From contig SVJD01000006.1 in the NCBI GenBank assembly GCA_015069165.1, positions 2,276 to 66,275 of the forward strand: a stretch of DNA of 64,000 bases. Direction: 5' to 3'. The DNA comes from Oscillospiraceae bacterium (GTDB lineage: Bacteria > Bacillota > Clostridia > UBA1212 > UBA1255). Each line of letters starts with the position of its first letter. The stretch's first letter is position 1. Shown here one piece after another: positions 52,172-61,692 of the stretch. Below the pieces are notes generated by a model. The model worked only from the letters and a program-made list of their open reading frames with translations, was not told the origin of the DNA and ran no database searches. The position numbers were made by a program, and so were the translations under genes.

Positions 52172-52855
52172 ATGAATATAGCTTTAGTTCTTGCAGCAGG
52201 AAAGGGTACGCGTATGGGCGCGGCCATTCCCAAGCAGTTTATAGAATATAAAGAAAAACCGATACTTGTGCACACACTCGAAGCATTTGCGAAACATTCA
52301 GACGTACACAAGATTTGCGTAATTTGTCCGGCTGATAATGTCGAGTACACAAAAGAACTTTTGCAAGAGTATAATATCCCCAAAATAGCGTGGGTTGAAG
52401 CCGGCGGAGCCAGCAGACGCGAATCGTCTTATATTGGGGTAGCCCGTTTGGCGAAGGAGTTCGGCGAAAATGACGTTGTAATGATACACGACGGAGCAAG
52501 ACCGAATGTTTCGGAGCGCATTATATCGGAAAACATTGAAGCTGCTGCAAAATTCGGTGCGTGTGAAACAGCAATACCAAGTCAGGATACTATTGCTGTT
52601 TCGGAAGACGGACAGAAAATTTCCGGCATACCCGACAGAAGCAAAATGTATAATGTACAGACTCCCCAATCTTTTAAAATCGGTATAATTTTAAAAGCTC
52701 ACCAATCATGGATGGAAAGAGATGGCGGAAATGCTACCGATGATGCTGCCCTTGTCATGGCAGACGGGCTCGATGTGTATTTGGTAAAGGGCGAAAAAAA
52801 CAACCTGAAAATCACAACTGAGGAGGACTTGCGAATATTATACAGCATAACGTAA
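52172..52855 (+). CDS. ispD: IspD/TarI-family cytidylyltransferase
   Basis: LAAGKGTRMG..PKQF, IHDGARP, QTPQSF, TDDA, NLKITT. Confidence 0.8.
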   Translation: MNIALVLAAGKGTRMGAAIPKQFIEYKEKPILVHTLEAFAKHSDVHKICVICPADNVEYTKELLQEYNIPKIAWVEAGGASRRESSYIGVARLAKEFGENDVVMIHDGARPNVSERIISENIEAAAKFGACETAIPSQDTIAVSEDGQKISGIPDRSKMYNVQTPQSFKIGIILKAHQSWMERDGGNATDDAALVMADGLDVYLVKGEKNNLKITTEEDLRILYSIT

Positions 52856-52873
52856 AAATTCGGAGGTGCCTTT

Positions 52874-53092
52874 GTGATGGAAAAATCGCTTTGCGTGTTT
52901 AAAACACACAATCAAGCGGTGGCGGCATGGAGTCATTTGAAACGTGCAGGAATAGATTGCACACTGGTCCGCACACCGCAAAATTTGGCAAAAGAGAAAA
53001 CGTGCTCGTACAGTGTTTCGATTTCTGCAGAATATATCGAAAAAGCAAGAGTGATTTTACAGAAAAATACACTTGATTTTTATATTGTGTAA
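52874..53092 (+). CDS. DUF3343-like small protein
   Basis: FKTHNQA..LKRAGI..VRTP..CSYSV; RBS ggagg. Confidence 0.65.
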   Translation: MMEKSLCVFKTHNQAVAAWSHLKRAGIDCTLVRTPQNLAKEKTCSYSVSISAEYIEKARVILQKNTLDFYIV

Positions 53093-53120: not shown

Positions 53121-53316
53121 AAGGCTTCCTGGAGTGTTCGACGAGAACCTATATTTTGAACCTACATCATATAAACGGGAATCCAAGTTAGATGTTTTAG
53201 AAATCAGGCCACATATAATTTCGATTTGTTCGGCAGTGGAAGATTGACACAACACACAGGATACCCACCTAGCTTAGCTAGGTGTCAAAATATCGGGGCG
53301 GCACTTTGGGAGCCTT
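53121..53316 (+). ncRNA. ssrS: Probable 6S RNA
   Basis: ~195 nt rod: AAGGCTTCC..GTGTTCG pairs with CGGCAC..GGGAGCCTT; TATTTTGAACCT pairs with AGGTGTCAAAATA; GGGAATCC pairs with GGATACCC; unpaired central bubble ACATCATATAAAC. Confidence 0.75.
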
Positions 53317-53354: not shown

Positions 53355-53645
53355 ATGGCTTGTACAGAAAAATATATTTTGAATAGCGAATTACAAGAAA
53401 TGCAATTGGGAGAGGGAGAAGGAGAAGGCACCGTGTTGTATGATCCTGCTACAGAAAATACCCACGTGCTTGACGAAGTTGCACAAGACATAATCGAAAT
53501 GTTCAAAAATCCTTCTGCCATAGAAGAAGCTGTGTCAAAGCTTGCAACCATATATGACGAAAAAGAAGAAATAATAGATAAAGATGTGAGAGAGTTTATT
53601 GTTACAGCGTTAAGCAATAACATACTTTTAACTGTTGAAGAATAA
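53355..53645 (+). CDS. Stand-alone PqqD/RiPP recognition element (RRE)
   Basis: 96 aa; VLYDP..THVLDEVAQDI..LATIYD..IDKDVREFIVTALSNNIL. Confidence 0.85.
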   Translation: MACTEKYILNSELQEMQLGEGEGEGTVLYDPATENTHVLDEVAQDIIEMFKNPSAIEEAVSKLATIYDEKEEIIDKDVREFIVTALSNNILLTVEE

Positions 53646-53660
53646 AAATTCAAAGCAGAT

Positions 53661-54560
53661 ATGGACATACTTTTTTACACCAGGGAAAAGTGTAAATATG
53701 CAATGACAGTTATAACTGACGACAAAAACATTGCGGAAATATTCCAAAAGCGATATTTTTGCAATAAAATTTCGTCGGAAAATTTTGCATTGGCAAAGAC
53801 TTGTGCAGAATTTGAGGAACTTTTTACCAAAATACAGGCGGAGCTTCCAAAAAAATCATCAGTGTTTTGTTACAACAGCGGCGAGAAAAAAGCATTTTTT
53901 ATAGAATCAGAGCGGAAAACGGTACTTACCGTTGATTTTTCGTTGCCCCAAGAATTATTACCTATCCAAGTTTTAGAAAATTTGTTATATATATCGTTCA
54001 TTCCCGAAGACAGTGTACTTGCTCTGCACGGTGCGGCGGTAGCAAAAGACGGCAAAGCGTACTTACTGTTGGCCTCTACTACTAGCGGAAAGTCCACGTT
54101 GACCGCTTTTTTGTGGAAAAAAGCAGGGTATGAATATATAACCGATGACGAAATATTTATTTCGCGCAAAGACAGATGTGTGCTGCCCGTGAGAAAAAAT
54201 TTATCACTCAGACAGGGCGGATATGATTTTTTAAATATGGAATTTGAAAAAGAATACCCGATTTTTGACGGCAAAGCACATACACATTTAATAGTGCCCC
54301 AAGAAGAGTTGAAATTCCCTAAATATGAAATAGAAAAAATAGTATTTTTGGCAGGATATGGCAGTGAAGAGCCGTATTTTATCAAAACACAGCCGAGAGA
54401 GGCCTTTTCCAAACTGCTTAAAGGACAGCTTTCCGGCAAGAATTTTGGAGAAAATGTAGCAGAAAAATATAAGATTTTAACTGAATTGGCACAAAAATCT
54501 TATGAAATGAGGTATTCTGATTTATGGACGGCAGAAAAATACTTAAAACACTTACCATAA
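53661..54560 (+). CDS. HPr-kinase-like (PadeK-type) peptide kinase
   Basis: LHGAAV..LLLASTTSGKSTLT..YITDDEIFI. Confidence 0.75.
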   Translation: MDILFYTREKCKYAMTVITDDKNIAEIFQKRYFCNKISSENFALAKTCAEFEELFTKIQAELPKKSSVFCYNSGEKKAFFIESERKTVLTVDFSLPQELLPIQVLENLLYISFIPEDSVLALHGAAVAKDGKAYLLLASTTSGKSTLTAFLWKKAGYEYITDDEIFISRKDRCVLPVRKNLSLRQGGYDFLNMEFEKEYPIFDGKAHTHLIVPQEELKFPKYEIEKIVFLAGYGSEEPYFIKTQPREAFSKLLKGQLSGKNFGENVAEKYKILTELAQKSYEMRYSDLWTAEKYLKHLP

Positions 54561-56659
54561 TGAAATTAAAGCAAAACGATAATGTTTTGCAGGTGGGCGG
54601 GTATAGTATGATTCCTCTGCTGGTTGCCGGGGATTTTATCCGTATAAAAGAACAAGATAAATACGAAATAGGCGATATTGTTGTTTGCGTTGATGACAGA
54701 AGCGGCAAAGTCGGACTTCTGGTACACAGAGTTATTTATATACGCAAAAAGGACGGTAAAATTATTTATGTCATAAAAGGCGACAATGCGGTGGCGGCAG
54801 AATATATAGAGAGTGATTTTTGCTTGGGTAAAGTAACGGAAATCACAAACAGAAATGGTAAAAAACTCGAGGTGAATACACCGAGCGAGAAAGATATGCA
54901 AATAGTTGAGCTTTCAAGAAAAGTTTACCGAATTTACCAAAAAACGGGTGACCCTACAGTAGCATTCAGCAGTGCACCTCACATGGAAATTTATGATAGG
55001 GCGCCTGATTTTATGAAAGAATGCGTTTTTGCGGCGCAAAAAGAAATGATAAAAAGAGCGGCAGAGCTTGTGCAAGGTTTACCGCCTTCACCGCCTGACC
55101 CTAAATTTGAATTTACAAAAGATTATTATGCCTTGCTTGCTTTTCACAGAGTAATGAATGTGTTGGAACCTTATGTTATTGAGGGTAGCGGGCGTTTCGG
55201 AAAGCATATAAAACTCTCTAAAGCCAGAAATTTGTCACTTGCAAGAAGACGTTTGATTAAAGCAAAAGAGATTATTGAAGCTTTTGAAAGAGAAAACATC
55301 AAATATCTCGTATTTAAAGGCTTTGCAACTTCATATTTTATTTTCGGGAATCCCAATATACGAGAATGTGATGATATTGATTTCCTGATTTTGCCGGAAG
55401 ATGTACAAAGAGCTCACGAAATATTAGGAGAATTGGGCTATTGTTACCATGACGAGAGAGGTTTTTACAAACCGGAGATACCCGAAGAACATTATCGAAC
55501 ACATTTAAAACCGTATGTACACGAAAAAGATTTGAATACGGTAGAGCTTCACACTGCCATTTTTACAGAGGAAAAATATACTCCTGCGGTTTTGGAAAAC
55601 AGACAAAAAATTGACATAAATGGTATGGGTGTTTATGTTTTAAAGGATGTTGAAGCTTTTGTTTGCCAGTTATTCATTACGGCTGTTGACGATTACGGAA
55701 CGGCTAATATGACATACGAAATGGATCCGAATATTTTTTTGCAGTTAAAATTCCGTAATTACCTTGATATAGCAATTATGGCAAAAAAATGCGCGGAAAT
55801 TCCGTCAGAAGAAATAATAGAAACCGCAATGAAATACAATGTGAATTTCCAGATGTTTTTTGCTTTGGATTTTACTTGTAAAATGTTTGATTATGCGGAA
55901 TTTACAGAGCCTTTGCGTAAACTTCGCGACAGATTTACAGAAAACGAGCAATTAGAGCCGAGTATGTACGATTTGCCGATAGATGTACAAGATTGTTTAC
56001 GCAGTCCGTTTAAAATGAAAATGAACGGCAAAGCTCTTTGTTATTTAAGAGATTCATATATTTTTTCATCACATTGGCGCAGGGTGCAAAAAAGGATAGA
56101 AAGCGAAGAAATTCCGCAATTAGAACAGCAAGTTATAAATATGCCTACAGCAGAAGGTGTGATACAAAAAGTAAAAAAGACCTCAGCGGGCGTAGTTATA
56201 GAGAACGAAATAGATATTTCGCAAAGAACAGATGAATTTATATTTGTTATAAAGAGATTGTTGGAAGAAAAGTGCAGAAAGCCGGAAGATTACGGCTATG
56301 AAGTGCGTTTTTTGTATGTAAATAAAAAAGAAGGCTATATGCGAAAAGGAAAAATAATGCAAAATATGCACTTGGATATGGAAGAATTGACAGATGAAGT
56401 AATCGCTTATATTCGGAAAACACGGCAAAAGTCAAGAATTTCCCTATATATAGGCAAAAAACGGACTTTTGACAACCTTTCTGAAAATAAAAAAATCACA
56501 ACAAAATTTAATATGTCAAAAGAAATATTTTTGCCTAAAAAAAGCACAAATTTCATAGTATATTCCACTGATATTCTTGATTTGGAATATGCCAAATTAA
56601 AGAAAATAACCTCTATAAATGAAAAAGAGGAAAATATCATAAAAATTTCATTTGACTAA
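54560..56659 (+). CDS. S24/S26 peptidase-like domain fused to nucleotidyltransferase (NTP_transf_5-like)
   Basis: GYSMIPLL.GD..GDIVV..LVHRV..KGDN; FKGFA..RECDDIDFLI..VELH. Start ATG 54560 in TAATG overlap. Confidence 0.75.
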   Translation: MKLKQNDNVLQVGGYSMIPLLVAGDFIRIKEQDKYEIGDIVVCVDDRSGKVGLLVHRVIYIRKKDGKIIYVIKGDNAVAAEYIESDFCLGKVTEITNRNGKKLEVNTPSEKDMQIVELSRKVYRIYQKTGDPTVAFSSAPHMEIYDRAPDFMKECVFAAQKEMIKRAAELVQGLPPSPPDPKFEFTKDYYALLAFHRVMNVLEPYVIEGSGRFGKHIKLSKARNLSLARRRLIKAKEIIEAFERENIKYLVFKGFATSYFIFGNPNIRECDDIDFLILPEDVQRAHEILGELGYCYHDERGFYKPEIPEEHYRTHLKPYVHEKDLNTVELHTAIFTEEKYTPAVLENRQKIDINGMGVYVLKDVEAFVCQLFITAVDDYGTANMTYEMDPNIFLQLKFRNYLDIAIMAKKCAEIPSEEIIETAMKYNVNFQMFFALDFTCKMFDYAEFTEPLRKLRDRFTENEQLEPSMYDLPIDVQDCLRSPFKMKMNGKALCYLRDSYIFSSHWRRVQKRIESEEIPQLEQQVINMPTAEGVIQKVKKTSAGVVIENEIDISQRTDEFIFVIKRLLEEKCRKPEDYGYEVRFLYVNKKEGYMRKGKIMQNMHLDMEELTDEVIAYIRKTRQKSRISLYIGKKRTFDNLSENKKITTKFNMSKEIFLPKKSTNFIVYSTDILDLEYAKLKKITSINEKEENIIKISFD

Positions 56660-56680
56660 AAATCGAATATATATTACAAT
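56652..56680 (+). promoter_or_regulatory. sigma-A-like promoter for regulator-radical SAM pair
   Basis: TTGACT-N17-TACAAT. Confidence 0.6.
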
Positions 56681-56743
56681 AAATGTAATAGTTAAACTTC
56701 TGTGGAAGAAAAAACGCTTCTCGGAAAAAAAGGGGGAATTTCA

Positions 56744-57859
56744 ATGTCCGACAGTAAGTACATTTTAGAAAAAAACAAAGAGGCAGTGTTTGATTTTTTT
56801 GCGTTGCTGAACTCTGTTCAGACGGCAGCAAGTTATGATGATATTTGCCCGCACAAGGAAGTAGCACCTGATGATAAAATTTCAGATGCTTATTACCGTT
56901 TGTATATGATAAGTTCAAGACTCTCATCCGGCTTGAAAATGTTCTTCACTTATAAAGAAGAACGCAAAATGAACTTTTTTGAGTGGATGTTCCGCACGAA
57001 TGTGGATACTTATTCGAGTTGTGAGGATATTATTTCTGAGATTGAGCAGTGGGCTCCCACAAAGCTTGTTTACCAGGCAATGAGATTTAATGATCCCTAT
57101 AATAATTTCCAAGATAAATTTTATGAGGAGATTGTAAATTCAAGAGATTTGTTTATGAGTTATATGAACGGTCTTAATACAACTACAGAAGTAAGATGGG
57201 AAATTATGTCATTTATTCAGCATCCCGAGGAATCACTTGACTTGCTTAAAGAATACATCAAAAAGATGTACCGCGAATTTTCCATAGAGTACGCTAATTT
57301 TTCACAGCAAAGAGCAGCTTTAAACGAGAAATTGGCAGAAAGTATTGCGGATGACTCAATTGATGCGGCAGTTATCGATTACGAGATAGATGAAAAAGAA
57401 ATCGAATCTACAGTTGAGATTTTATCACAATCAATAACACCTCCTACAAAAGAGGTTAAAATTGTAGGCTCGCTTTTCGCACCTAATCAAATGATAAAAA
57501 TAGACGCTTCCAGAGGTCTTTATTATTTGGTTGGTGTAGGTTATATGGATTACTACAACTCATTTATGAATAAAGGTCCGGATGATGTTAAGCTCAATGA
57601 ACTCTTCAGAGCTTTTACAGACGGAACTCGTGCGCAAATTATTGAGATTTTGAGAGAAAAAGAGTGTTATAACGGCGAGCTCAGCAATATGTTGGATGTT
57701 CCCATGTCTTCGCTTACTCATCACATGGAAATTCTCAATACCTGCGGTTTCGTTGTTAAGCGTAATGTAGGTAAACGCACTTATTATAAATTAAACAAGA
57801 AGCAATTTATAAATGCTTCCAGATTGTTACGAAGATATGTAGAAGGTTATGATCTGTAA
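56744..57859 (+). CDS. Large ArsR-family regulator (C-terminal winged HTH, ~290-aa N-terminal domain)
   Basis: FRAFTDGTRAQIIEIL..YNGELSNML..SSLTHHMEILNTCGFV..GKRTYYKLN. Start ATG 56744. Confidence 0.8.
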   Translation: MSDSKYILEKNKEAVFDFFALLNSVQTAASYDDICPHKEVAPDDKISDAYYRLYMISSRLSSGLKMFFTYKEERKMNFFEWMFRTNVDTYSSCEDIISEIEQWAPTKLVYQAMRFNDPYNNFQDKFYEEIVNSRDLFMSYMNGLNTTTEVRWEIMSFIQHPEESLDLLKEYIKKMYREFSIEYANFSQQRAALNEKLAESIADDSIDAAVIDYEIDEKEIESTVEILSQSITPPTKEVKIVGSLFAPNQMIKIDASRGLYYLVGVGYMDYYNSFMNKGPDDVKLNELFRAFTDGTRAQIIEILREKECYNGELSNMLDVPMSSLTHHMEILNTCGFVVKRNVGKRTYYKLNKKQFINASRLLRRYVEGYDL

Positions 57860-58883
57860 AAGCACTTACATTGAAATTACAAACAGATGTAATTTAGATT
57901 GCAGAGATTGTTATAACAGCTCAGGTAGAAATAAACATACAGTGGAGCTTGATCTCGATGTGCTTTTAAAATATATTGAAGATTTAATTATTATATACAA
58001 AGTAAGAAGCATTACATTTTCCGGTGGCGAACCGCTTCTTTACAGCAGAATTGACGATTTGTTTGATGCTTTGACGGAATATACCCGCAAATATTCTGAT
58101 GTAGTGTTTAATTATGTAACAAACGGTACTTTGTATAACAAGAATTTTTACGATTTATTGGAAAACAGCTCTCGATTTATGGTGCAAATAAGTCTTGACG
58201 GACCGAATGAGGAGTCGTGTGCAAGTATACGCGGCTCAGGCACGTTTACAAAAGTAGTAAATAATGTAAGTCAGAGAAAGTTTTTCCATAAACCTGTATT
58301 CAAAATGATTATCAACAAATTCAATGCTCCCTTTGCAGAAGAATACTTCCACTTTGTTTATGAAAAGCTTGGCGGCGAGCCAAGCTTTGCATTTGCAAAT
58401 TATCAGGGAAATGCCATACAAAATTGGAATGAAATGGAACTTTTACCATCCGAAAAGGCTAAAATACTCAGGATGGTTCAACAGAAATACAAAGAATACG
58501 ATATTACAGATATTGCACTTCCCCTTCCCACTGTTCATTGTGACCTTACGGACGCGGACGGCGCAATGGATTTTTGCATCAAGCCGGATGGCTCGGTGCA
58601 ACCGTGTCAGAATCTTTATGACAGCAAATTTTCCCTCGGAAACATTTACAAACTTGACTGGAAAAGTATTGAATTCAACGTAAACAGCCTCAAGGAGTAT
58701 CTGATTAAACGATTGGAAATGGATTTTGGCTGTAAAAAGTGTTTTTTAAACAAAAATTGCGGCAGAGGTTGCCCTGCTTTTGCGTTTATGAGGAACGGAG
58801 ATTTGCTTTTATCTGACGCAGAGTGCGATTTTAAGCGTGTTGCAATGATTTCCATTATAAAAACAGAAAAAGGCTTTAAATAA
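57849..58883 (+). CDS. Radical SAM/SPASM peptide maturase (no fused RRE)
   Basis: CNLDCRDC, SGGEPLL, QISLDG; SPASM HC..GSVQPC..GNI..CKKC..CGRGCPA..C. Confidence 0.9.
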   Translation: MICKSTYIEITNRCNLDCRDCYNSSGRNKHTVELDLDVLLKYIEDLIIIYKVRSITFSGGEPLLYSRIDDLFDALTEYTRKYSDVVFNYVTNGTLYNKNFYDLLENSSRFMVQISLDGPNEESCASIRGSGTFTKVVNNVSQRKFFHKPVFKMIINKFNAPFAEEYFHFVYEKLGGEPSFAFANYQGNAIQNWNEMELLPSEKAKILRMVQQKYKEYDITDIALPLPTVHCDLTDADGAMDFCIKPDGSVQPCQNLYDSKFSLGNIYKLDWKSIEFNVNSLKEYLIKRLEMDFGCKKCFLNKNCGRGCPAFAFMRNGDLLLSDAECDFKRVAMISIIKTEKGFK

Positions 58884-58922
58884 AAGTGCCTATATATAGG
58901 CAAAAATAAGAGGTTTGGTGTA

Positions 58923-58964
58923 TAGTCCGAAATTGTTTGATTTTTGTCAAACATTTCCGGACTA
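58923..58964. repeat. Long imperfect inverted repeat after the radical SAM gene
   Basis: TAGTCCGAAATTGTTTGA..TCAAACATTTCCGGACTA. Confidence 0.65.
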
Positions 58965-59146
58965 AAATTTTGTTAATAAAATTAACTTTTTGTTTCTAAA
59001 ATTGAGAAGTCGAAAAAATGAAAATCATTATTTTTAGATGTTTTTAAATAAATCACATAATAAATATATAAAATATACCCTATTTTTAGCACTGAAAAAG
59101 TACGAGAAAAAAATAATTTATGTGCGAAAACTGTAAAATTGATGGC

Positions 59147-59201
59147 TTGCACGTTTGTTTTTATTGTGCTAACATATCAATGCAGCCGGGAAATATTTCC
59201 C
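59147..59201 (+). promoter_or_regulatory. Candidate promoter with downstream palindrome
   Basis: TTGCAC-N17-TAACAT; GGGAAATATTTCCC at 59188-201. Confidence 0.45.
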
Positions 59202-59244
59202 AAAGGCTTTTTGTAGATTATATGTGGAAAGAGAAGGAGCGACG

Positions 59245-60069
59245 ATGGGTTCTGCAGAGTGGAGTGTAGCGAGTAAGAAAAAGAGTGTTTTGTTTGATGT
59301 ACTTTTTGTTATGGACAGAGCGAACAGAATTAAATCTAAAGAGATACTACGATTTGAATATTCTCTTTTGAAAGCTGAAACAGTCGAGAAATATGATGCA
59401 ATTTATAAAGTGGCAAAGAATGAAAGCGATTTGATGGCTGCGGCGTTTCATGTTTCCCCAAAGAAGATATCCAGTAAACACGATATAATATGTGAGTATT
59501 TACTTGATAAAGCGGTGGATATGGTTTCTTTTAATGAAATGGTCAAATTTTTAGAGAAAACTACAGTGGAAGAGATTGCGTATTATATTGCAGCTACATG
59601 TTTATCTACAAAAGATAAAGAAGTAACAAGAGAAGATATCGCTGAAATAGTAAAGCAGGGAGACCAAAATGTGATTGAGGTTTTATACCATGCAGCGTTA
59701 CCGGAGAAAATCAAGATGAGTGTGTATATGATGGTTTTCAATTATGATAAATTTTTATCAGAGTTAATCTGTTATATGAAGAAACTTCATAAGTATGTTA
59801 ATAATTTATATACGGAGTATTTAGATGTTTATCAACATTCTAAAAATAATCTAGTTGACTTTATGAATGTAAAAGCTAATCGACCTTATTTGATCCGGGA
59901 TATAAAAGAAAAGATTAATGACGAAAGACCAAGGAAACACGTTATAGTATTATCTTTGATAAGGCTTGAATATGGATGGATAAAACAGTCTCAACATGTA
60001 GTATATTATAGCAGAGGTCTTTTGGCAACACAAAGAGTATTACATAGTAGCGATTTTTCGATGTTTTAA
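59245..60069 (+). CDS. Protein resembling the N-terminal domain of the neighbouring ArsR-like regulators, without HTH
   Basis: Helical pattern (EVLYHAALPEKIKMSVYMMVFNYDKFLSELICYMKKLH) parallels 56744 and 60263; ends before any HTH. RBS aaggag, ATG 59245. Confidence 0.55.
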   Translation: MGSAEWSVASKKKSVLFDVLFVMDRANRIKSKEILRFEYSLLKAETVEKYDAIYKVAKNESDLMAAAFHVSPKKISSKHDIICEYLLDKAVDMVSFNEMVKFLEKTTVEEIAYYIAATCLSTKDKEVTREDIAEIVKQGDQNVIEVLYHAALPEKIKMSVYMMVFNYDKFLSELICYMKKLHKYVNNLYTEYLDVYQHSKNNLVDFMNVKANRPYLIRDIKEKINDERPRKHVIVLSLIRLEYGWIKQSQHVVYYSRGLLATQRVLHSSDFSMF

Positions 60070-60087
60070 GGAGGTGAATAAAATAAA

Positions 60088-60204
60088 ATGAAAAAATGGA
60101 GAAATCCTTTGATGGAGACGATTACAAAAGATGAATTGGCAGACCTGGTTACCGCCGCAGGCTGCTCTGATTATTGGGAGGTATGTGTATCTTTCCATAA
60201 TTAA
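60088..60204 (+). CDS. Putative RiPP precursor peptide 1 (38 aa)
   Basis: Not in ORF track. MKKWRNPLMETITKDELADLVTAAGCSDYWEVCVSFHN; RBS aaggaggtg; homologous to 61501-61647. Confidence 0.8.
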   Translation: MKKWRNPLMETITKDELADLVTAAGCSDYWEVCVSFHN

Positions 60205-60262
60205 AAAGCTGGCGCAAGTATAAACAATTTATCTAAAATTTTAAGGAAAAGAGGAATTTATA

Positions 60263-61501
60263 ATGAGAACAAAAAGGACTATTATAAAGAGAACAAGAAA
60301 AACACCGGAAGAGCAAAAACACGTAAATCCCAACAGACTGTTTTTGAGCGAACCGGCACCGTGTTTGAATCCTGCGTTTAAGGATGAGAAATACATAGCA
60401 AGCAGAAAAATCGGCGATTACTACTATTCCATACATGTAAAACCGGCAAAACCCGAAGTTCGTGATGCAATGATATTTTTGAATTTTGCATATAATGACC
60501 GCGAAAGCCTTTATCAAGAGGTAAACGGCAAAGCGGAAGAAAGAGCGTATATGAGCATTGCCACCAAAAGGCTTCTTGCTTACGCTGATGAAAATATTGG
60601 AGCATTGAAACTTTTCTTTACACGTATAAGTGACAAGTTTCCTTTTACAGGTATTGTGATGATGCCGCAAATGTGGAGAGAAGAATTCCCGATTGATTTA
60701 TTGATGGAGCTGATTGATTCATACGATGACGAAATGCTTTTTACAACGCTTCTTGTGTATTTGCACGAGAGACAGATGATGAACAAGGATTTTGTTAAAA
60801 GAATCATTCCGAATCGTGCTCTTTTAGTAATGTATTTGGACGGTGCGATGTATGACAATCAAATAAAAACCGATTTGATGGAGTTATATGATATGTCGAG
60901 CCTTAGCGCAGAAAGCAAACCCTCTTTGAAAGAAATTTTGAAAAAGTTTATACTTGAATTCTACAGTAAATATGAGGAAGTCTTTGAATATGCAAGTAAA
61001 GCCATAAACAAAGAAGTTGCAAGAATTGAAAAAACAATAAGAAAAGAAGGAGAACTTTCCGGTGTTACAGATACTTTTGTCTTTCGCAGAGCAATTTTGC
61101 GAGGCGGAATAGAGAAAAATATTTGTATTGAGTTGTTACCTTTTTGCAGATCGAATGTTGAATATTTTGCCGGTTATCATACAGTGACCATCTGTGTGGG
61201 AAATGGAAACAGTATATTGCCGGGCTCCATAGCAGATTCAGGCAGGATTGGTGAAAAGCTAAAATTACTCACAAATGACCAGCTTTATAAAATAATGAAA
61301 AGTATTTTTGCCAAACCTACAAATTTGAATACTATTGCTGCTGAACTTGAAGTTACACCGGAGCGTGCATACAAAATTTTGGCACAGTTGGTTGAGGAAA
61401 AGTATGTTTTAAAAGAAGAGAACAATCAAATATACACTGCAAATAAGGAATATTTTACTAAGATTATTCATGTTTTAGAAAATTACGGAGGTGAGATATA
61501 A
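60263..61501 (+). CDS. Large regulator-like protein with C-terminal winged HTH
   Basis: LKLLTNDQLYKIMKSI..TNLNTIAAELEVTPERAYKILAQLVEEKYV..IYTAN; core similar to 56744. Confidence 0.7.
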   Translation: MRTKRTIIKRTRKTPEEQKHVNPNRLFLSEPAPCLNPAFKDEKYIASRKIGDYYYSIHVKPAKPEVRDAMIFLNFAYNDRESLYQEVNGKAEERAYMSIATKRLLAYADENIGALKLFFTRISDKFPFTGIVMMPQMWREEFPIDLLMELIDSYDDEMLFTTLLVYLHERQMMNKDFVKRIIPNRALLVMYLDGAMYDNQIKTDLMELYDMSSLSAESKPSLKEILKKFILEFYSKYEEVFEYASKAINKEVARIEKTIRKEGELSGVTDTFVFRRAILRGGIEKNICIELLPFCRSNVEYFAGYHTVTICVGNGNSILPGSIADSGRIGEKLKLLTNDQLYKIMKSIFAKPTNLNTIAAELEVTPERAYKILAQLVEEKYVLKEENNQIYTANKEYFTKIIHVLENYGGEI

Positions 61502-61647
61502 TGAATATTTATACAGGAAAGACAAAAAAGTGGCACGCACCTTTTATGCAAACAATGTCGCGAAATGAGGTGGACAGAGCCATTGCTTTGAGTGCGTGTT
61601 CCGGATATTATGATATTTGCGGATCAAAAAGAGCAAAAATAATTTAA
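61501..61647 (+). CDS. Putative RiPP precursor peptide 2 (48 aa)
   Basis: Not in ORF track. MNIYTGKTKKWHAPFMQTMSRNEVDRAIALSACSGYYDICGSKRAKII; RBS ggaggtg; TAATG overlap with upstream gene. Confidence 0.8.
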   Translation: MNIYTGKTKKWHAPFMQTMSRNEVDRAIALSACSGYYDICGSKRAKII

Positions 61648-61659
61648 TAAGATATTAAC

Positions 61660-61692
61660 ACAATAGCCCCGTTCAGAAAACGGGGCTGTTGT
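61660..61692. terminator. Terminator hairpin between convergent genes
   Basis: ACAATAGCCCCGTT-CAGAA-AACGGGGCTGTTGT. Confidence 0.75.

What the first reader, a model, noticed from the sequence alone, without database searches (positions are those of the whole stretch)
53355..61692. Candidate new RiPP system: RRE + kinase + peptidase/nucleotidyltransferase + radical SAM/SPASM + two precursors, without lasso cyclase or exporter
Seen: a stand-alone PqqD/RRE, an HPr-kinase-like enzyme, an S26-NTase fusion, an RRE-less SPASM enzyme, three related regulator-like genes and two homologous short ORFs, closed by a terminator. Known: RRE, PadeK-type kinase and nucleotidyltransferase accompany paeninodin-type lasso clusters, and WxxP/YxxP leaders are RRE-binding motifs; SPASM enzymes cross-link peptides. 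Here no asparagine-synthetase-like cyclase or B2 protease is present. Inference: lasso-type tailoring enzymes are paired with a radical-SAM macrocyclase to make a cross-linked, phosphorylated and possibly nucleotidylated peptide. I do not recognise this as a characterised class.
Basis: partly seen in the sequence, partly recalled or inferred. Interest (0 to 1): 0.92.

Follow-up and report, generated by a model that had tools for sequence, protein, structure and literature searches.

The report
Phosphopeptide gene cluster with radical-SAM enzyme
This is a real, conserved gene cluster in gut Clostridia that joins the recently described machinery for phosphorylated ribosomal peptides to a radical-SAM enzyme, and so probably makes small peptides that are both cross-linked and phosphorylated, a combination that the papers I could search do not describe.

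Summary
Window 53355-61692 encodes a stand-alone PqqD/RRE, an HprK-like kinase, a cytoplasmic SipW-type S26 peptidase fused to an NTP_transf_5 nucleotidyltransferase, an RRE-less radical SAM/SPASM enzyme, ArsR-type proteins and two homologous precursors.

The set recurs in 20 further loci of Clostridia. The S26 peptidase lies beside the rSAM in 21 of 21 loci and the kinase in 20 of 21.

Sixteen aligned precursors share only W-x-x-P, one Ser exactly 23 residues after the Trp, and one downstream Cys.

It is not wholly new. The RRE, kinase, SipW-like peptidase and NTP-transferase set was published in 2026 as "linear polyphosphorylated peptides" (LPP; PMC13381572). There the kinase polyphosphorylates core Ser3 and the peptidase removes the leader with the RRE's help.

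New here are the obligatory rSAM/SPASM partner, the invariant Cys, the WxxP leader with a different spacing, the domain fusions and an ArsR-like gene coupled to each precursor. This genus also has no exporter in the cluster. That paper's main text never mentions radical SAM.

Best reading: an LPP-type pathway that makes Ser-phosphorylated, Cys-cross-linked peptides. The chemistry is inferred, not shown.

Verdict: new variant of a known kind.

The parts
53355..53645 (+). Stand-alone PqqD-family RiPP recognition element (96 aa)
   Evidence: Pfam PqqD E 5.8e-10. NCBIfam PQQ_PqqD 7e-7, PqqD_rel_X 6.7e-5 and lasso_PqqD_Bac 9.5e-4, all below cut-off. Found by tblastn in 18 of 21 loci, and in L099 by Pfam. 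Fused to the S26 peptidase in L008-L011.
53661..54560 (+). HprK-like P-loop kinase (299 aa), the likely Ser kinase
   Evidence: TIGR04352 E 1.8e-12, residues 118-298. H123, G143-K144, T146 and D162-D163 are invariant in 11 of 11. Found in 20 of 21 loci. It is the counterpart of LppK in PMC13381572.
54524..54970 (+). N-terminal S26 (SipW / archaeal-type signal peptidase I) domain of the 711-aa fusion protein; the likely leader peptidase
   Evidence: TIGR02228 E 9.2e-13, residues 13-110. Ser28 in G-x-S-M-x-P, His68-Arg69 and K-G-D-N 85-88 are invariant in 11 of 11. No TM segment. Found in 21 of 21 loci.
55202..55888 (+). NTP_transf_5 nucleotidyltransferase domain of the same protein (residues 227-455)
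   Evidence: PF14907 E 3e-27. It is a separate ~345-aa gene in the distant loci. Found in 16 of 21 loci.
55931..56659 (+). C-terminal ~240-aa domain of the fusion protein, beta-rich, function unknown, confined to the window's own clade
   Evidence: Found in 8 of 21 loci. AF2 model pLDDT 73. No Foldseek PDB match at E <= 0.001. The protein atlas gave only scores <= 0.82.
56702..57859 (+). RegA: ArsR/SmtB-type wHTH protein with a ~270-aa helical N-terminal domain of no known family. The true start is probably the ATG at 56744. Its end overlaps the rSAM start by 11 nt.
   Evidence: NF033788 E 2.2e-16, 59.4 bits, above the 55-bit cut-off. AF2 pLDDT 86. Foldseek matches only ArsR/SmtB repressors, and only over the C-terminus. 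The family has 28 clusters at E <= 0.001, most of them beginning at residue 15.
57849..58883 (+). RRE-less radical SAM/SPASM peptide maturase (344 aa)
   Evidence: Radical_SAM 1.3e-19, SPASM 3.2e-4. Best NCBIfam matches are ScmE 5.4e-27, PapB 2.3e-24 and DynA 5.8e-23, all far below cut-off. Invariant C14, C18, C21, C231, C253, C295, C298, C304, C308 and C326. The best solved relative is SkfB, E 2.1e-30.
58923..58964 (.). Inverted repeat (18-nt arms, 6-nt spacer) in the 340-nt gap before RegB; a candidate operator or transcript end
   Evidence: 89% complementary. Recognisable in L004 and weaker in L003, L095 and L096. Function not tested.
59224..60069 (+). RegB: 281-aa protein of no known family, without an HTH, directly upstream of precursor 1
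   Evidence: No family match. Only weak profile similarity to the N-terminal domain of RegA (hhalign 38%, E 3.3e-4). Found in 7 of 21 loci.
60088..60204 (+). Precursor 1 (38 aa): MKKWRNPLMETITKDELADLVTAAGCSDYWEVCVSFHN
   Evidence: AAGGAGGTG lies 12 nt upstream. Homologous to precursor 2. Orthologues in L003, L004, L095 and L096. Synonymous changes predominate.
60263..61501 (+). RegC: 412-aa paralogue of RegA. Its stop overlaps the start of precursor 2 by one base.
   Evidence: hhalign to RegA 97.4% and to the distant-locus Reg proteins 95.2%. Weak TrmB wHTH match at residues 352-391. TAATG overlap.
61501..61647 (+). Precursor 2 (48 aa): MNIYTGKTKKWHAPFMQTMSRNEVDRAIALSACSGYYDICGSKRAKII
   Evidence: GGAGGTG lies 8 nt upstream. 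Invariant W11, P14, S34 and C40 across 16 aligned precursors.
61665..61687 (.). G+C-rich hairpin between the cluster and the convergent metH-like gene
   Evidence: 10 pairs, 6 of them G-C, flagged for the - strand. Sequence read.

Best explanation
This is a biosynthetic gene cluster for two small ribosomal peptides (RiPPs). It combines the LPP ('linear polyphosphorylated peptide') machinery with a radical SAM/SPASM enzyme.

Proposed pathway:
1. The stand-alone PqqD/RRE binds the W-x-x-P motif of the leader and presents the precursor to all the enzymes. This is inferred from LppB and PqqD.
2. The HprK-like kinase phosphorylates, perhaps several times, the invariant Ser that lies exactly 23 residues after the Trp. 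This is inferred from LppK acting on Ser3.
3. The RRE-less rSAM/SPASM enzyme uses the invariant Cys, 4-8 residues further on, to form an intramolecular cross-link, most likely a thioether. This step is inferred, and the acceptor is unknown.
4. The cytoplasmic SipW-type S26 domain cuts off the leader in the run of small residues 1-2 positions before the Ser. The mature peptides would then be about 13-17 residues long. The site is inferred from LppS and not mapped.
5. The NTP_transf_5 domain may decorate the phosphate. Its activity is unknown even in the LPP system.

The ArsR-type RegA and RegC proteins are probably transcription factors. Each precursor gene follows directly on a Reg gene (pep1 on RegB, pep2 on RegC), and RegC is translationally coupled to pep2. 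These proteins may sense the peptides.

Shown here: the gene content, the catalytic motifs, the conserved co-occurrence and the conserved residues of the precursors. Not shown: any of the chemistry.
For: Domains and motifs are.

Co-occurrence was counted across 21 distinct loci: the window, 17 loci found through the rSAM and 3 found through the kinase. S26 21/21, HprK-like 20/21, PqqD 18/21 by tblastn plus L099 by Pfam, NTase 16/21, Reg 16/21.

The rSAM start overlaps or abuts the RRE gene, or an S26-RRE fusion gene, in L008-L011.

The rSAM has no RRE of its own, since CX3CX2C begins at residue 14. It therefore needs a partner RRE, as PqqE needs PqqD (passage of PMC9389541).

In 16 aligned precursors the only invariant residues after Met1 are W, P, S and C, and the stretch from W to S has no gaps. 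Among 57 database peptides the Ser column reads Ser 52, Thr 2 and gap 3, and the Cys column reads Cys 53 and gap 4. The Ser-to-Thr exchange keeps the hydroxyl.

Published characterisation of the homologous module (PMC13381572, sections 6, 7 and 11 read): LppK places 1-4 phosphates on core Ser3. LppS, with catalytic S29, H68 and D93, removes the leader only when the RRE LppB is present.

The closest solved relative of the rSAM profile is the thioether-forming SkfB (E 2.1e-30), ahead of anSME at 1.1e-19 and the radical SAM protein of 5wgg at 2.3e-18. That SkfB forms a thioether is my recall. PapB, a ranthipeptide maturase, is among the best NCBIfam matches.

The genome holds only these two peptides of the family.
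Against: - No product has been observed.
- Every named family model for the kinase, the RRE and the rSAM scores below its curated cut-off.
- The leader differs from the LPP consensus. It has W rather than Y, and the Ser lies 23 positions after the aromatic residue rather than 18 (against section 6 of PMC13381572). Neither the phosphorylation site nor the cleavage site can simply be transferred.
- LppK did not phosphorylate an S3T variant (section 7), which fits poorly with the two natural Thr variants.
- Similarity to SkfB and PapB does not establish thioether chemistry. DynA, which cross-links through C-C and ether bonds by my recall, PqqE and anSME score in the same range.
- No precursor was found beside the rSAM in L007, L099, L100 or L101.
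- NTase was missed in 5 of 21 loci and Reg in 5 of 21.
- The window's clade has no exporter in the cluster, which is unusual for a secreted RiPP.
Confidence: 0.55

Rival explanations
1. Same RiPP pathway, but the rSAM/SPASM enzyme does not make a thioether. It could install another modification, such as a C-C or C-O cross-link involving the aromatic residue two positions after the Ser, an epimerisation, or an oxidation of Cys or Ser as anSME performs.
For: DynA (5.8e-23), anSME (4.8e-22), mycofactocin MftC (4e-21) and PqqE (1e-15) score close to PapB (2.3e-24). In the window's clade and in L136/L137 the motif C-[ST]-x-[YFH] keeps an aromatic residue.
Against: The aromatic position is not kept in L008-L011, whereas the Cys is invariant in 16 of 16 aligned precursors. 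The best solved relative is a thioether synthase.
Confidence: 0.25
2. The products are not antimicrobials. They are cell-cell or intracellular signals, sensed by the ArsR-type Reg proteins whose genes are coupled to each precursor gene, in an arrangement that resembles receptor-propeptide cassettes of peptide quorum sensing.
For: A Reg gene lies directly upstream of, or overlaps, the precursor gene in the window (two modules) and in L008-L012, L095-L097, L136 and L137. RegA has a bona fide ArsR/SmtB wHTH and a large N-terminal domain of unknown fold. The RegA family is as narrow as the rSAM family, with 28 clusters. No exporter or immunity-like membrane protein lies in the window's cluster.
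Against: No test of binding gave an answer. Regulators beside RiPP clusters are common and need not sense the product. The distant loci carry two ABC half-transporters, as bacteriocin clusters do. The two peptide types, one acidic and aromatic and the other with a basic tail, also fit a two-peptide bacteriocin.
Confidence: 0.3
3. Two independent systems that merely sit side by side: an LPP-type module with its peptides, and an unrelated rSAM enzyme with a different substrate.
For: The LPP module works without any rSAM in Paenibacillus (PMC13381572, section 7). In the window an ArsR-like gene lies between the two parts.
Against: The S26 peptidase lies within 4 kb of the rSAM in 21 of 21 loci, across rSAM identities of 29-69% and several gene orders. 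The rSAM has no RRE of its own and is overlapped by the RRE gene in the distant loci. Only one peptide family is present, and it carries an invariant Cys.
Confidence: 0.05

Closest known systems
Linear polyphosphorylated peptides (LPP), Popov et al., Nat Commun 2026 (PMC13381572; outline and sections 6, 7, 9, 11 and 12 read, supplements not seen)
   Same: [quoted passage not shown] There is no lasso cyclase. The leader has a [Y/W]xxP motif. A conserved Ser lies just after the leader-core junction and is the phosphorylation site in LppA. One to three precursors per cluster. Found in Bacillota.
   Different: Here an rSAM/SPASM enzyme is always present and the core has an invariant Cys. The leader has W rather than Y, the Ser lies 23 rather than 18 positions after the aromatic residue, and the LPP consensus YxxPxVLxHQxIxFETxxS is not matched. 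The cores are about 13-25 residues, against 45 for LppA. The peptidase is fused to the NTase, or in relatives to the RRE. ArsR-like genes are coupled to the precursor genes. The window's clade has no MsbA-like exporter. The hosts are gut Clostridia (Oscillospirales-type MAGs) rather than Bacilli.
Paeninodin-type lasso peptide tailoring (PadeK kinase, PsmN nucleotidyltransferase)
   Same: HprK-like kinase, NTP_transf_5-type enzyme, discrete PqqD RRE and WxxP leaders (passages of PMC7533575; PMC13381572, section 9).
   Different: No Asn-synthetase-like cyclase and no B2 transglutaminase peptidase. According to those passages the lasso kinases act on a C-terminal Ser. Here the conserved Ser is near the N-terminus of the core.
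Sactipeptide and ranthipeptide maturases (SkfB, the radical SAM protein of 5wgg, PapB)
   Same: rSAM with a full seven-Cys SPASM domain acting on short Cys-containing peptides. SkfB is the best solved relative and PapB is among the best family matches.
   Different: Scores lie far below every family cut-off (PapB 86 bits against 340). There is no fused RRE. No known member of these classes comes with a kinase, an S26 peptidase or an NTase (searches found none).
SynChlorMet cassette (ScmC/ScmE), HPr-rel-A system and GeoRSP system: NCBIfam/TIGRFAM-defined sets whose products are uncharacterised (the names come; what these cassettes contain is my recall of Haft and Basu 2011, which the library does not hold)
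   Same: They also pair an HprK-like protein and a PqqD-family protein with rSAM/SPASM enzymes. ScmE is the best NCBIfam match of the rSAM and ScmC matches the kinase.
   Different: All scores are well below cut-off (ScmE 94.6 against 400, ScmC 21.9 against 125, HprK_rel_A 47 against 200, PqqD_rel_X 23.8 against 35). The window's cluster is not a member of any of them.
PQQ and mycofactocin pathways
   Same: A discrete PqqD-family chaperone presents a short precursor to an RRE-less rSAM/SPASM enzyme (passage of PMC9389541). PqqA also carries a W-x-K-P-like start (my recall).
   Different: Those pathways make cofactors from fixed residues. Here the core varies apart from one Ser and one Cys, and a kinase and a leader peptidase are added. 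PqqE 57.5 bits against 381, MftC 75.6 against 265.

Membership tests
LPP (linear polyphosphorylated peptide) clusters | SipW-type (archaeal-type SPase I) Ser/His leader peptidase encoded beside a discrete RRE | tested here: met
   TIGR02228 E 9.2e-13. Ser28, His68 and Asp87 are invariant in 11 of 11. PqqD lies two genes upstream. LppS itself could not be aligned because no sequence was to hand.
LPP (linear polyphosphorylated peptide) clusters | HprK-like kinase | tested here: met
   TIGR04352 E 1.8e-12 (below its cut-off) and conserved P-loop, His and Asp-Asp motifs.
LPP (linear polyphosphorylated peptide) clusters | Uncharacterised NTP transferase | tested here: met
   PF14907 E 3e-27, above cut-off, as a domain of the peptidase protein.
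LPP (linear polyphosphorylated peptide) clusters | MsbA-like exporter in the cluster | tested here: not met
   No TM-like segment in any of the nine proteins and no ABC homologue on the contig. The distant relatives L008-L012 and others do carry two ABC half-transporters: 8 of 21 loci.
LPP (linear polyphosphorylated peptide) clusters | Precursor with the N-terminal consensus YxxPxVLxHQxIxFETxxS | tested here: not met
   The precursors have W-x-x-P, and the conserved Ser lies 23 positions after the W, against 18 after the Y. The intervening residues differ. Only L138 has Y-x-x-P.
LPP (linear polyphosphorylated peptide) clusters | Product stays linear (no cyclising or cross-linking enzyme) | tested here: not met
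   An rSAM/SPASM maturase is present in 21 of 21 loci, and the core has an invariant Cys. The cross-link itself was not observed.
LPP (linear polyphosphorylated peptide) clusters | Polyphosphorylation of the conserved core Ser | not testable with these tools
   Needs mass spectrometry. The column reads Ser in 52 and Thr in 2 of 57 database peptides.
Lasso peptides | Asn-synthetase-like macrolactam cyclase and B2 transglutaminase-like peptidase | tested here: not met
   PF13471: no match in the genome, which is 88.7% complete. PF00733: one match of 40 positions in a 444-aa frame outside the window.
Sactipeptides / ranthipeptides | rSAM with SPASM auxiliary clusters and a Cys-bearing core | tested here: met
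   CX3CX2C plus seven invariant Cys. Invariant core Cys.
Sactipeptides / ranthipeptides | Membership of a named maturase family (PapB, StsB, CteB type and others) | tested here: not met
   83 NCBIfam families matched. None of the 25 best shown reaches its cut-off, and the best bit score of all (ScmE, 94.6) is far below those cut-offs, which range from 170 to 650.
Sactipeptides / ranthipeptides | Cys-S to carbon thioether in the product | not testable with these tools
   Needs MS/MS and NMR.
SynChlorMet cassette / HPr-rel-A system | Proteins reach the curated cut-offs of ScmC, ScmE, HprK_rel_A and PqqD_rel_X | tested here: not met
   21.9 against 125, 94.6 against 400, 47 against 200 and 23.8 against 35 bits.

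The most novel reading that the evidence does not exclude
This is a distinct RiPP class: short peptides that carry both a (poly)phosphorylated Ser and a radical-SAM cross-link from an invariant Cys, made by one RRE-organised complex. The leader's fixed 23-residue spacing would place the Ser for the kinase, the rSAM and the SipW-type peptidase. The two products, one acidic and aromatic and one basic, would act as a pair. They would be sensed by the ArsR-type proteins encoded directly upstream of each precursor, giving a self-regulated peptide circuit that in this genus works without a dedicated exporter.
Probability: 0.25. Interest if true: 0.85.

Novelty: new variant of a known kind. Interest (0 to 1): 0.62.

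Why it matters
LPPs were described only in 2026. Their final products and their biological role are still unknown, and the authors took them to be linear. This cluster shows the same kinase/RRE/SipW-peptidase/NTase machinery tied to a radical SAM/SPASM enzyme in uncultured gut and rumen Clostridia.

If the prediction holds, phosphorylation and radical cross-linking meet in one small peptide, which would be a new chemotype. The precursors are also much shorter and simpler than LppA, with a core of 13-16 residues and only one Ser and one Cys conserved. That would make it easier to work out what the kinase and the enigmatic NTP transferase do.

The fusions support the published finding that the peptidase needs the RRE. 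They also suggest that the peptidase and the NTase act in one complex. The Reg gene upstream of each precursor is a testable lead to how such clusters are controlled.

Tried and rejected
- Complex prediction, RegC with precursor 2, each as an alignment: no verdict (score 0.00). I do not use it either way.
- The look-up of sequencing runs for RNA: no RNA holder listed.
- The protein-atlas search on residues 460-711 of the fusion protein: only hypothetical proteins, scores <= 0.82.
- Foldseek against the PDB. For the RegA model only the C-terminal ArsR domain matched, and nothing matched the N-terminal domain. For the C-terminal domain of the fusion protein no match reached E <= 0.001.
- Sequence searches of the PDB with the kinase, alone and as a profile, and with the PqqD: no meaningful match. 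The HPrK fold is therefore not confirmed by structure, and the LppB crystal structure was not found.
- Precursors in L007, L099, L100 and L101: none found with the peptide HMM or a W-x-x-P scan. L101 is flanked by housekeeping genes.
- A classical A-x-A signal-peptidase rule for the cleavage site. I considered it because columns -1 and -3 before the residue preceding the Ser are small or aliphatic. I did not adopt it as settled, because LppS cuts after F-E-T (PMC13381572, section 11).
- NTP_transf_5 as a marker of RiPPs: rejected. The two other copies in this genome lie in a polysaccharide locus and beside a thymidylate-kinase-like gene.
- Literature. Searches found no paper that joins a radical SAM enzyme with an HprK-like kinase or a SipW-like peptidase in a RiPP. 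One search was badly worded and returned mostly epilepsy papers. Haft and Basu 2011 is not held, so what I say about the SCM, GeoRSP and HPr-rel-A cassettes beyond their NCBIfam names is recalled.
- Supplementary Data 2 of PMC13381572 (domain co-occurrence around SpI genes) could list Radical_SAM. I could not see it.

Full report
**What is there**

Between a 6S RNA gene (53123-53316) and a convergent metH-like gene, nine + strand genes fill 53355-61647.
- A 96-aa PqqD-family RRE (Pfam E 5.8e-10).
- A 299-aa HprK-like P-loop protein (TIGR04352 E 1.8e-12).
- A 711-aa fusion protein. It has an archaeal/SipW-type signal-peptidase-I domain (TIGR02228 E 9.2e-13), an NTP_transf_5 domain (PF14907 E 3e-27) and a ~240-aa C-terminal domain with no relatives of known function.
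- RegA, with an ArsR/SmtB wHTH that scores above the NCBIfam cut-off.
- A 344-aa radical SAM/SPASM enzyme.
- RegB, then a 38-aa ORF, then RegC, then a 48-aa ORF.

None of the nine proteins has a membrane segment, and the contig carries no ABC transporter homologue. RegA and RegC are full-length paralogues (hhalign 97.4%). RegB is at best a distant relative that has lost the HTH (12-38%).

**The enzymes look active**

- The peptidase domain keeps Ser28 in G-x-S-M-x-P, His68-Arg69 and K-G-D-N in 11 of 11 homologues. This is the Ser/His type, with no signal anchor.
- The kinase keeps His123, the G-K-[ST]-T P-loop and Asp162-Asp163 in 11 of 11.
- The rSAM keeps CX3CX2C at residues 14-21 and seven further Cys in 37 of 37 sequences. 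It therefore has a full SPASM domain and no N-terminal RRE.

**The short ORFs are genes**

They resemble each other (E 4e-11) and follow strong ribosome-binding sites. Orthologues occur in every complete related locus. Changes fall mostly on third codon positions: for pep1, window against L004, 10 synonymous against 2 non-synonymous codon changes in 24 codons. A profile of 16 of them finds 57 peptide clusters in the 5.8-billion-protein collection and nothing else in the window's own genome.

**Is the combination real?**

The rSAM defines a narrow clade. In the protein search, 39 listed clusters have E <= 4e-55, and the next best stands at 7e-35. All come from metagenomes or MAGs. Their record titles name Acutalibacteraceae, Candidatus Egerieisoma, Oscillospiraceae and unclassified Clostridia.

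In the window's own order, 12 of 46 genomes have the rSAM, among them 7 of the 9 other genomes of its genus. A search with the kinase profile in 399 scored Clostridia genomes found 21 with a match and brought in three further loci from other families.

I counted 21 distinct loci: the window, 17 found through the rSAM and 3 found through the kinase. L102 was dropped because it is the same contig as L005. Several loci are cut by contig ends. The counts are:

| Component | Loci with it |
|---|---|
| S26 peptidase | 21/21 |
| HprK-like kinase | 20/21 (weak in L099, missed in L100) |
| PqqD | 18/21 by tblastn, plus L099 by Pfam |
| NTase | 16/21 |
| Reg | 16/21 |
| ABC exporters | 8/21 |
| Precursor of this family | 14/21 |

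Gene order and fusions differ between clades:
- The window's clade has S26-NTase-Cdom, RegA before the rSAM, and two further modules (RegB-pep1, RegC-pep2).
- L008-L011 have HprK, an S26-PqqD fusion, the rSAM, two ABC half-transporters, a separate NTase and one Reg-precursor module.
- L136 and L137 run Reg, precursor, PqqD, rSAM, HprK, S26.

Conservation through such rearrangement argues for one functional unit.

**The precursors**

Across 16 aligned precursors the only invariant residues after Met1 are Trp, Pro (W-x-x-P), one Ser and one Cys. There is no gap between the Trp and the Ser, so the Ser always lies 23 residues after the Trp. The Cys follows 4-8 residues later.

Among the 57 database peptides the Ser column reads Ser 52, Thr 2 and gap 3, and the three gapped peptides have aberrant C-termini. 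The Cys column reads Cys 53 and gap 4. The position two before the Ser is Ala or Gly in 55.

In the window's clade the core begins C-[ST]-x-[YFH]. It ends either acidic and aromatic (the pep1 type) or with a basic tail (the pep2 type).

**What is already known**

A full-text search for HprK together with RiPP led to Popov et al., Nat Commun 2026 (PMC13381572). I read the outline, sections 6, 7, 9, 11 and 12, and term searches. I did not see the supplements.

They define 'linear polyphosphorylated peptides'. These clusters have a SipW-like signal peptidase (LppS), a discrete RRE (LppB), an HprK-like kinase (LppK), an uncharacterised NTP transferase (LppN) and an MsbA-like pump. They often lie beside paeninodin-type lasso clusters in Bacilli. 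Their findings:
- LppK puts 1-4 phosphates on Ser3 of the core.
- LppS (S29, H68, D93) removes the leader only with LppB, and does so poorly on unphosphorylated substrate.
- LppN showed no activity.
- The final product and its role are unknown.
- The leader consensus is YxxPxVLxHQxIxFETxxS.

The words radical, SPASM, thioether and Clostridia do not occur in the main text.

The window's cluster therefore contains the complete LPP enzyme core. This explains the S26 domain as the leader peptidase and the invariant Ser as the likely phosphorylation site.

**What differs from LPP**

1. An rSAM/SPASM enzyme is always present, with a matching invariant Cys, so the product is probably not linear.
2. 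The leader has W rather than Y, a longer fixed spacing to the Ser, and otherwise a different sequence.
3. The cores are very short.
4. The peptidase is fused to the NTase, or in relatives to the RRE.
5. A Reg gene lies directly upstream of each precursor gene, often with overlapping stop and start codons.
6. The window's clade has no exporter.

No search found a paper that describes such a hybrid. NCBIfam does name three uncharacterised cassettes that pair HprK-like and PqqD-like proteins with rSAM/SPASM enzymes (SynChlorMet, GeoRSP, HPr-rel-A). The window's proteins score far below their cut-offs.

**Mechanism**

The proposed steps are set out under Best explanation; what follows is how firm each one is.
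- RRE binding, Ser phosphorylation and S26 cleavage rest on homology to characterised LPP enzymes and on the pattern of precursor conservation. I put them at about 0.7.
- I hold that the rSAM acts on the same peptides at about 0.85. It lacks an RRE, it overlaps the RRE gene in the distant loci, and only one peptide family is present.
- Thioether chemistry is a weaker guess, at about 0.5. SkfB is the best solved relative at E 2.1e-30 and PapB is among the best family matches, but enzymes with other chemistries score nearby.
- The roles of the NTase and of the C-terminal domain are unknown.
- RegA is very probably a DNA-binding regulator. Whether it senses the peptides is open, because the complex prediction gave no verdict.

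**Verdict**

This is a real and coherent cluster. It is a new variant of a known kind: LPP-type machinery joined to a radical SAM enzyme.

Noticed in passing
window 53123-53316 (+): A 6S/SsrS RNA gene (Rfam RF00013, 75.2 bits, E 8.5e-14, full length) ends 39 nt before the PqqD start codon. The cluster may therefore be read through from, or share signals with, the 6S RNA gene.
   Followed up: partly
window 58923-58964: An 18-nt inverted repeat with a 6-nt spacer lies in the long gap between the rSAM and RegB. It is recognisable in L004 and less so in other relatives. It is a candidate operator for the ArsR-type proteins, or a transcript end.
   Followed up: partly
L109 4609-6244 (own genome, contig C18): The genome also carries what looks like a SCIFF-type system (that name is my recall). 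A 61-aa ORF with a Cys-rich C-terminus (six Cys in about 30 residues) lies directly upstream of a 464-aa radical SAM protein. That protein is 22-23% identical to the cluster's rSAM, and its N-terminus resembles the cluster's PqqD (33% over 54 residues, tblastn E 1.8e-4). It was not scanned against family libraries.
   Followed up: partly
L008 9246-10004, L009 8498-9217, L010 9282-10004, L011 9270-10004: In the distant relatives the S26 leader peptidase is fused to the PqqD RRE in one ~240-aa protein. This natural fusion agrees with the published finding that the SipW-like peptidase needs the RRE.
   Followed up: yes
L096 and L097 (two contigs of one genome, G029): One genome carries both cluster types. 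One is the window's type, with two further modules (RegB-pep1 and RegC-pep2). The other is the distant type, with one precursor and an ABC exporter. This raises the same question of cross-talk between leaders that the LPP paper asked for LPP and lasso clusters.
   Followed up: partly
P0168 and P0170 (database peptides): Two natural precursor variants have Thr in place of the otherwise invariant Ser, although the characterised LppK did not accept Thr.
   Followed up: no
L107 7170-8324 and L108 6257-7333 (own genome, contigs C6 and C48): Two further NTP_transf_5 genes lie outside any RiPP context. One is in a polysaccharide biosynthesis locus. The other lies beside a thymidylate-kinase-like gene and an AMP-binding enzyme.
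   Followed up: partly
window 52172-53092; L003, L004, L006: The IspD gene and a conserved 72-aa ORF flank the cluster on the same side in the window and in three relatives. Within this genus the cluster therefore sits at a fixed chromosomal place.
   Followed up: partly
L099 1843-3336: A second small HprK-like gene (weak Hpr_kinase_C match) and a second S24/S26-like gene lie 6 kb upstream of a reduced PqqD-S26-rSAM trio. No precursor was found there.
   Followed up: partly
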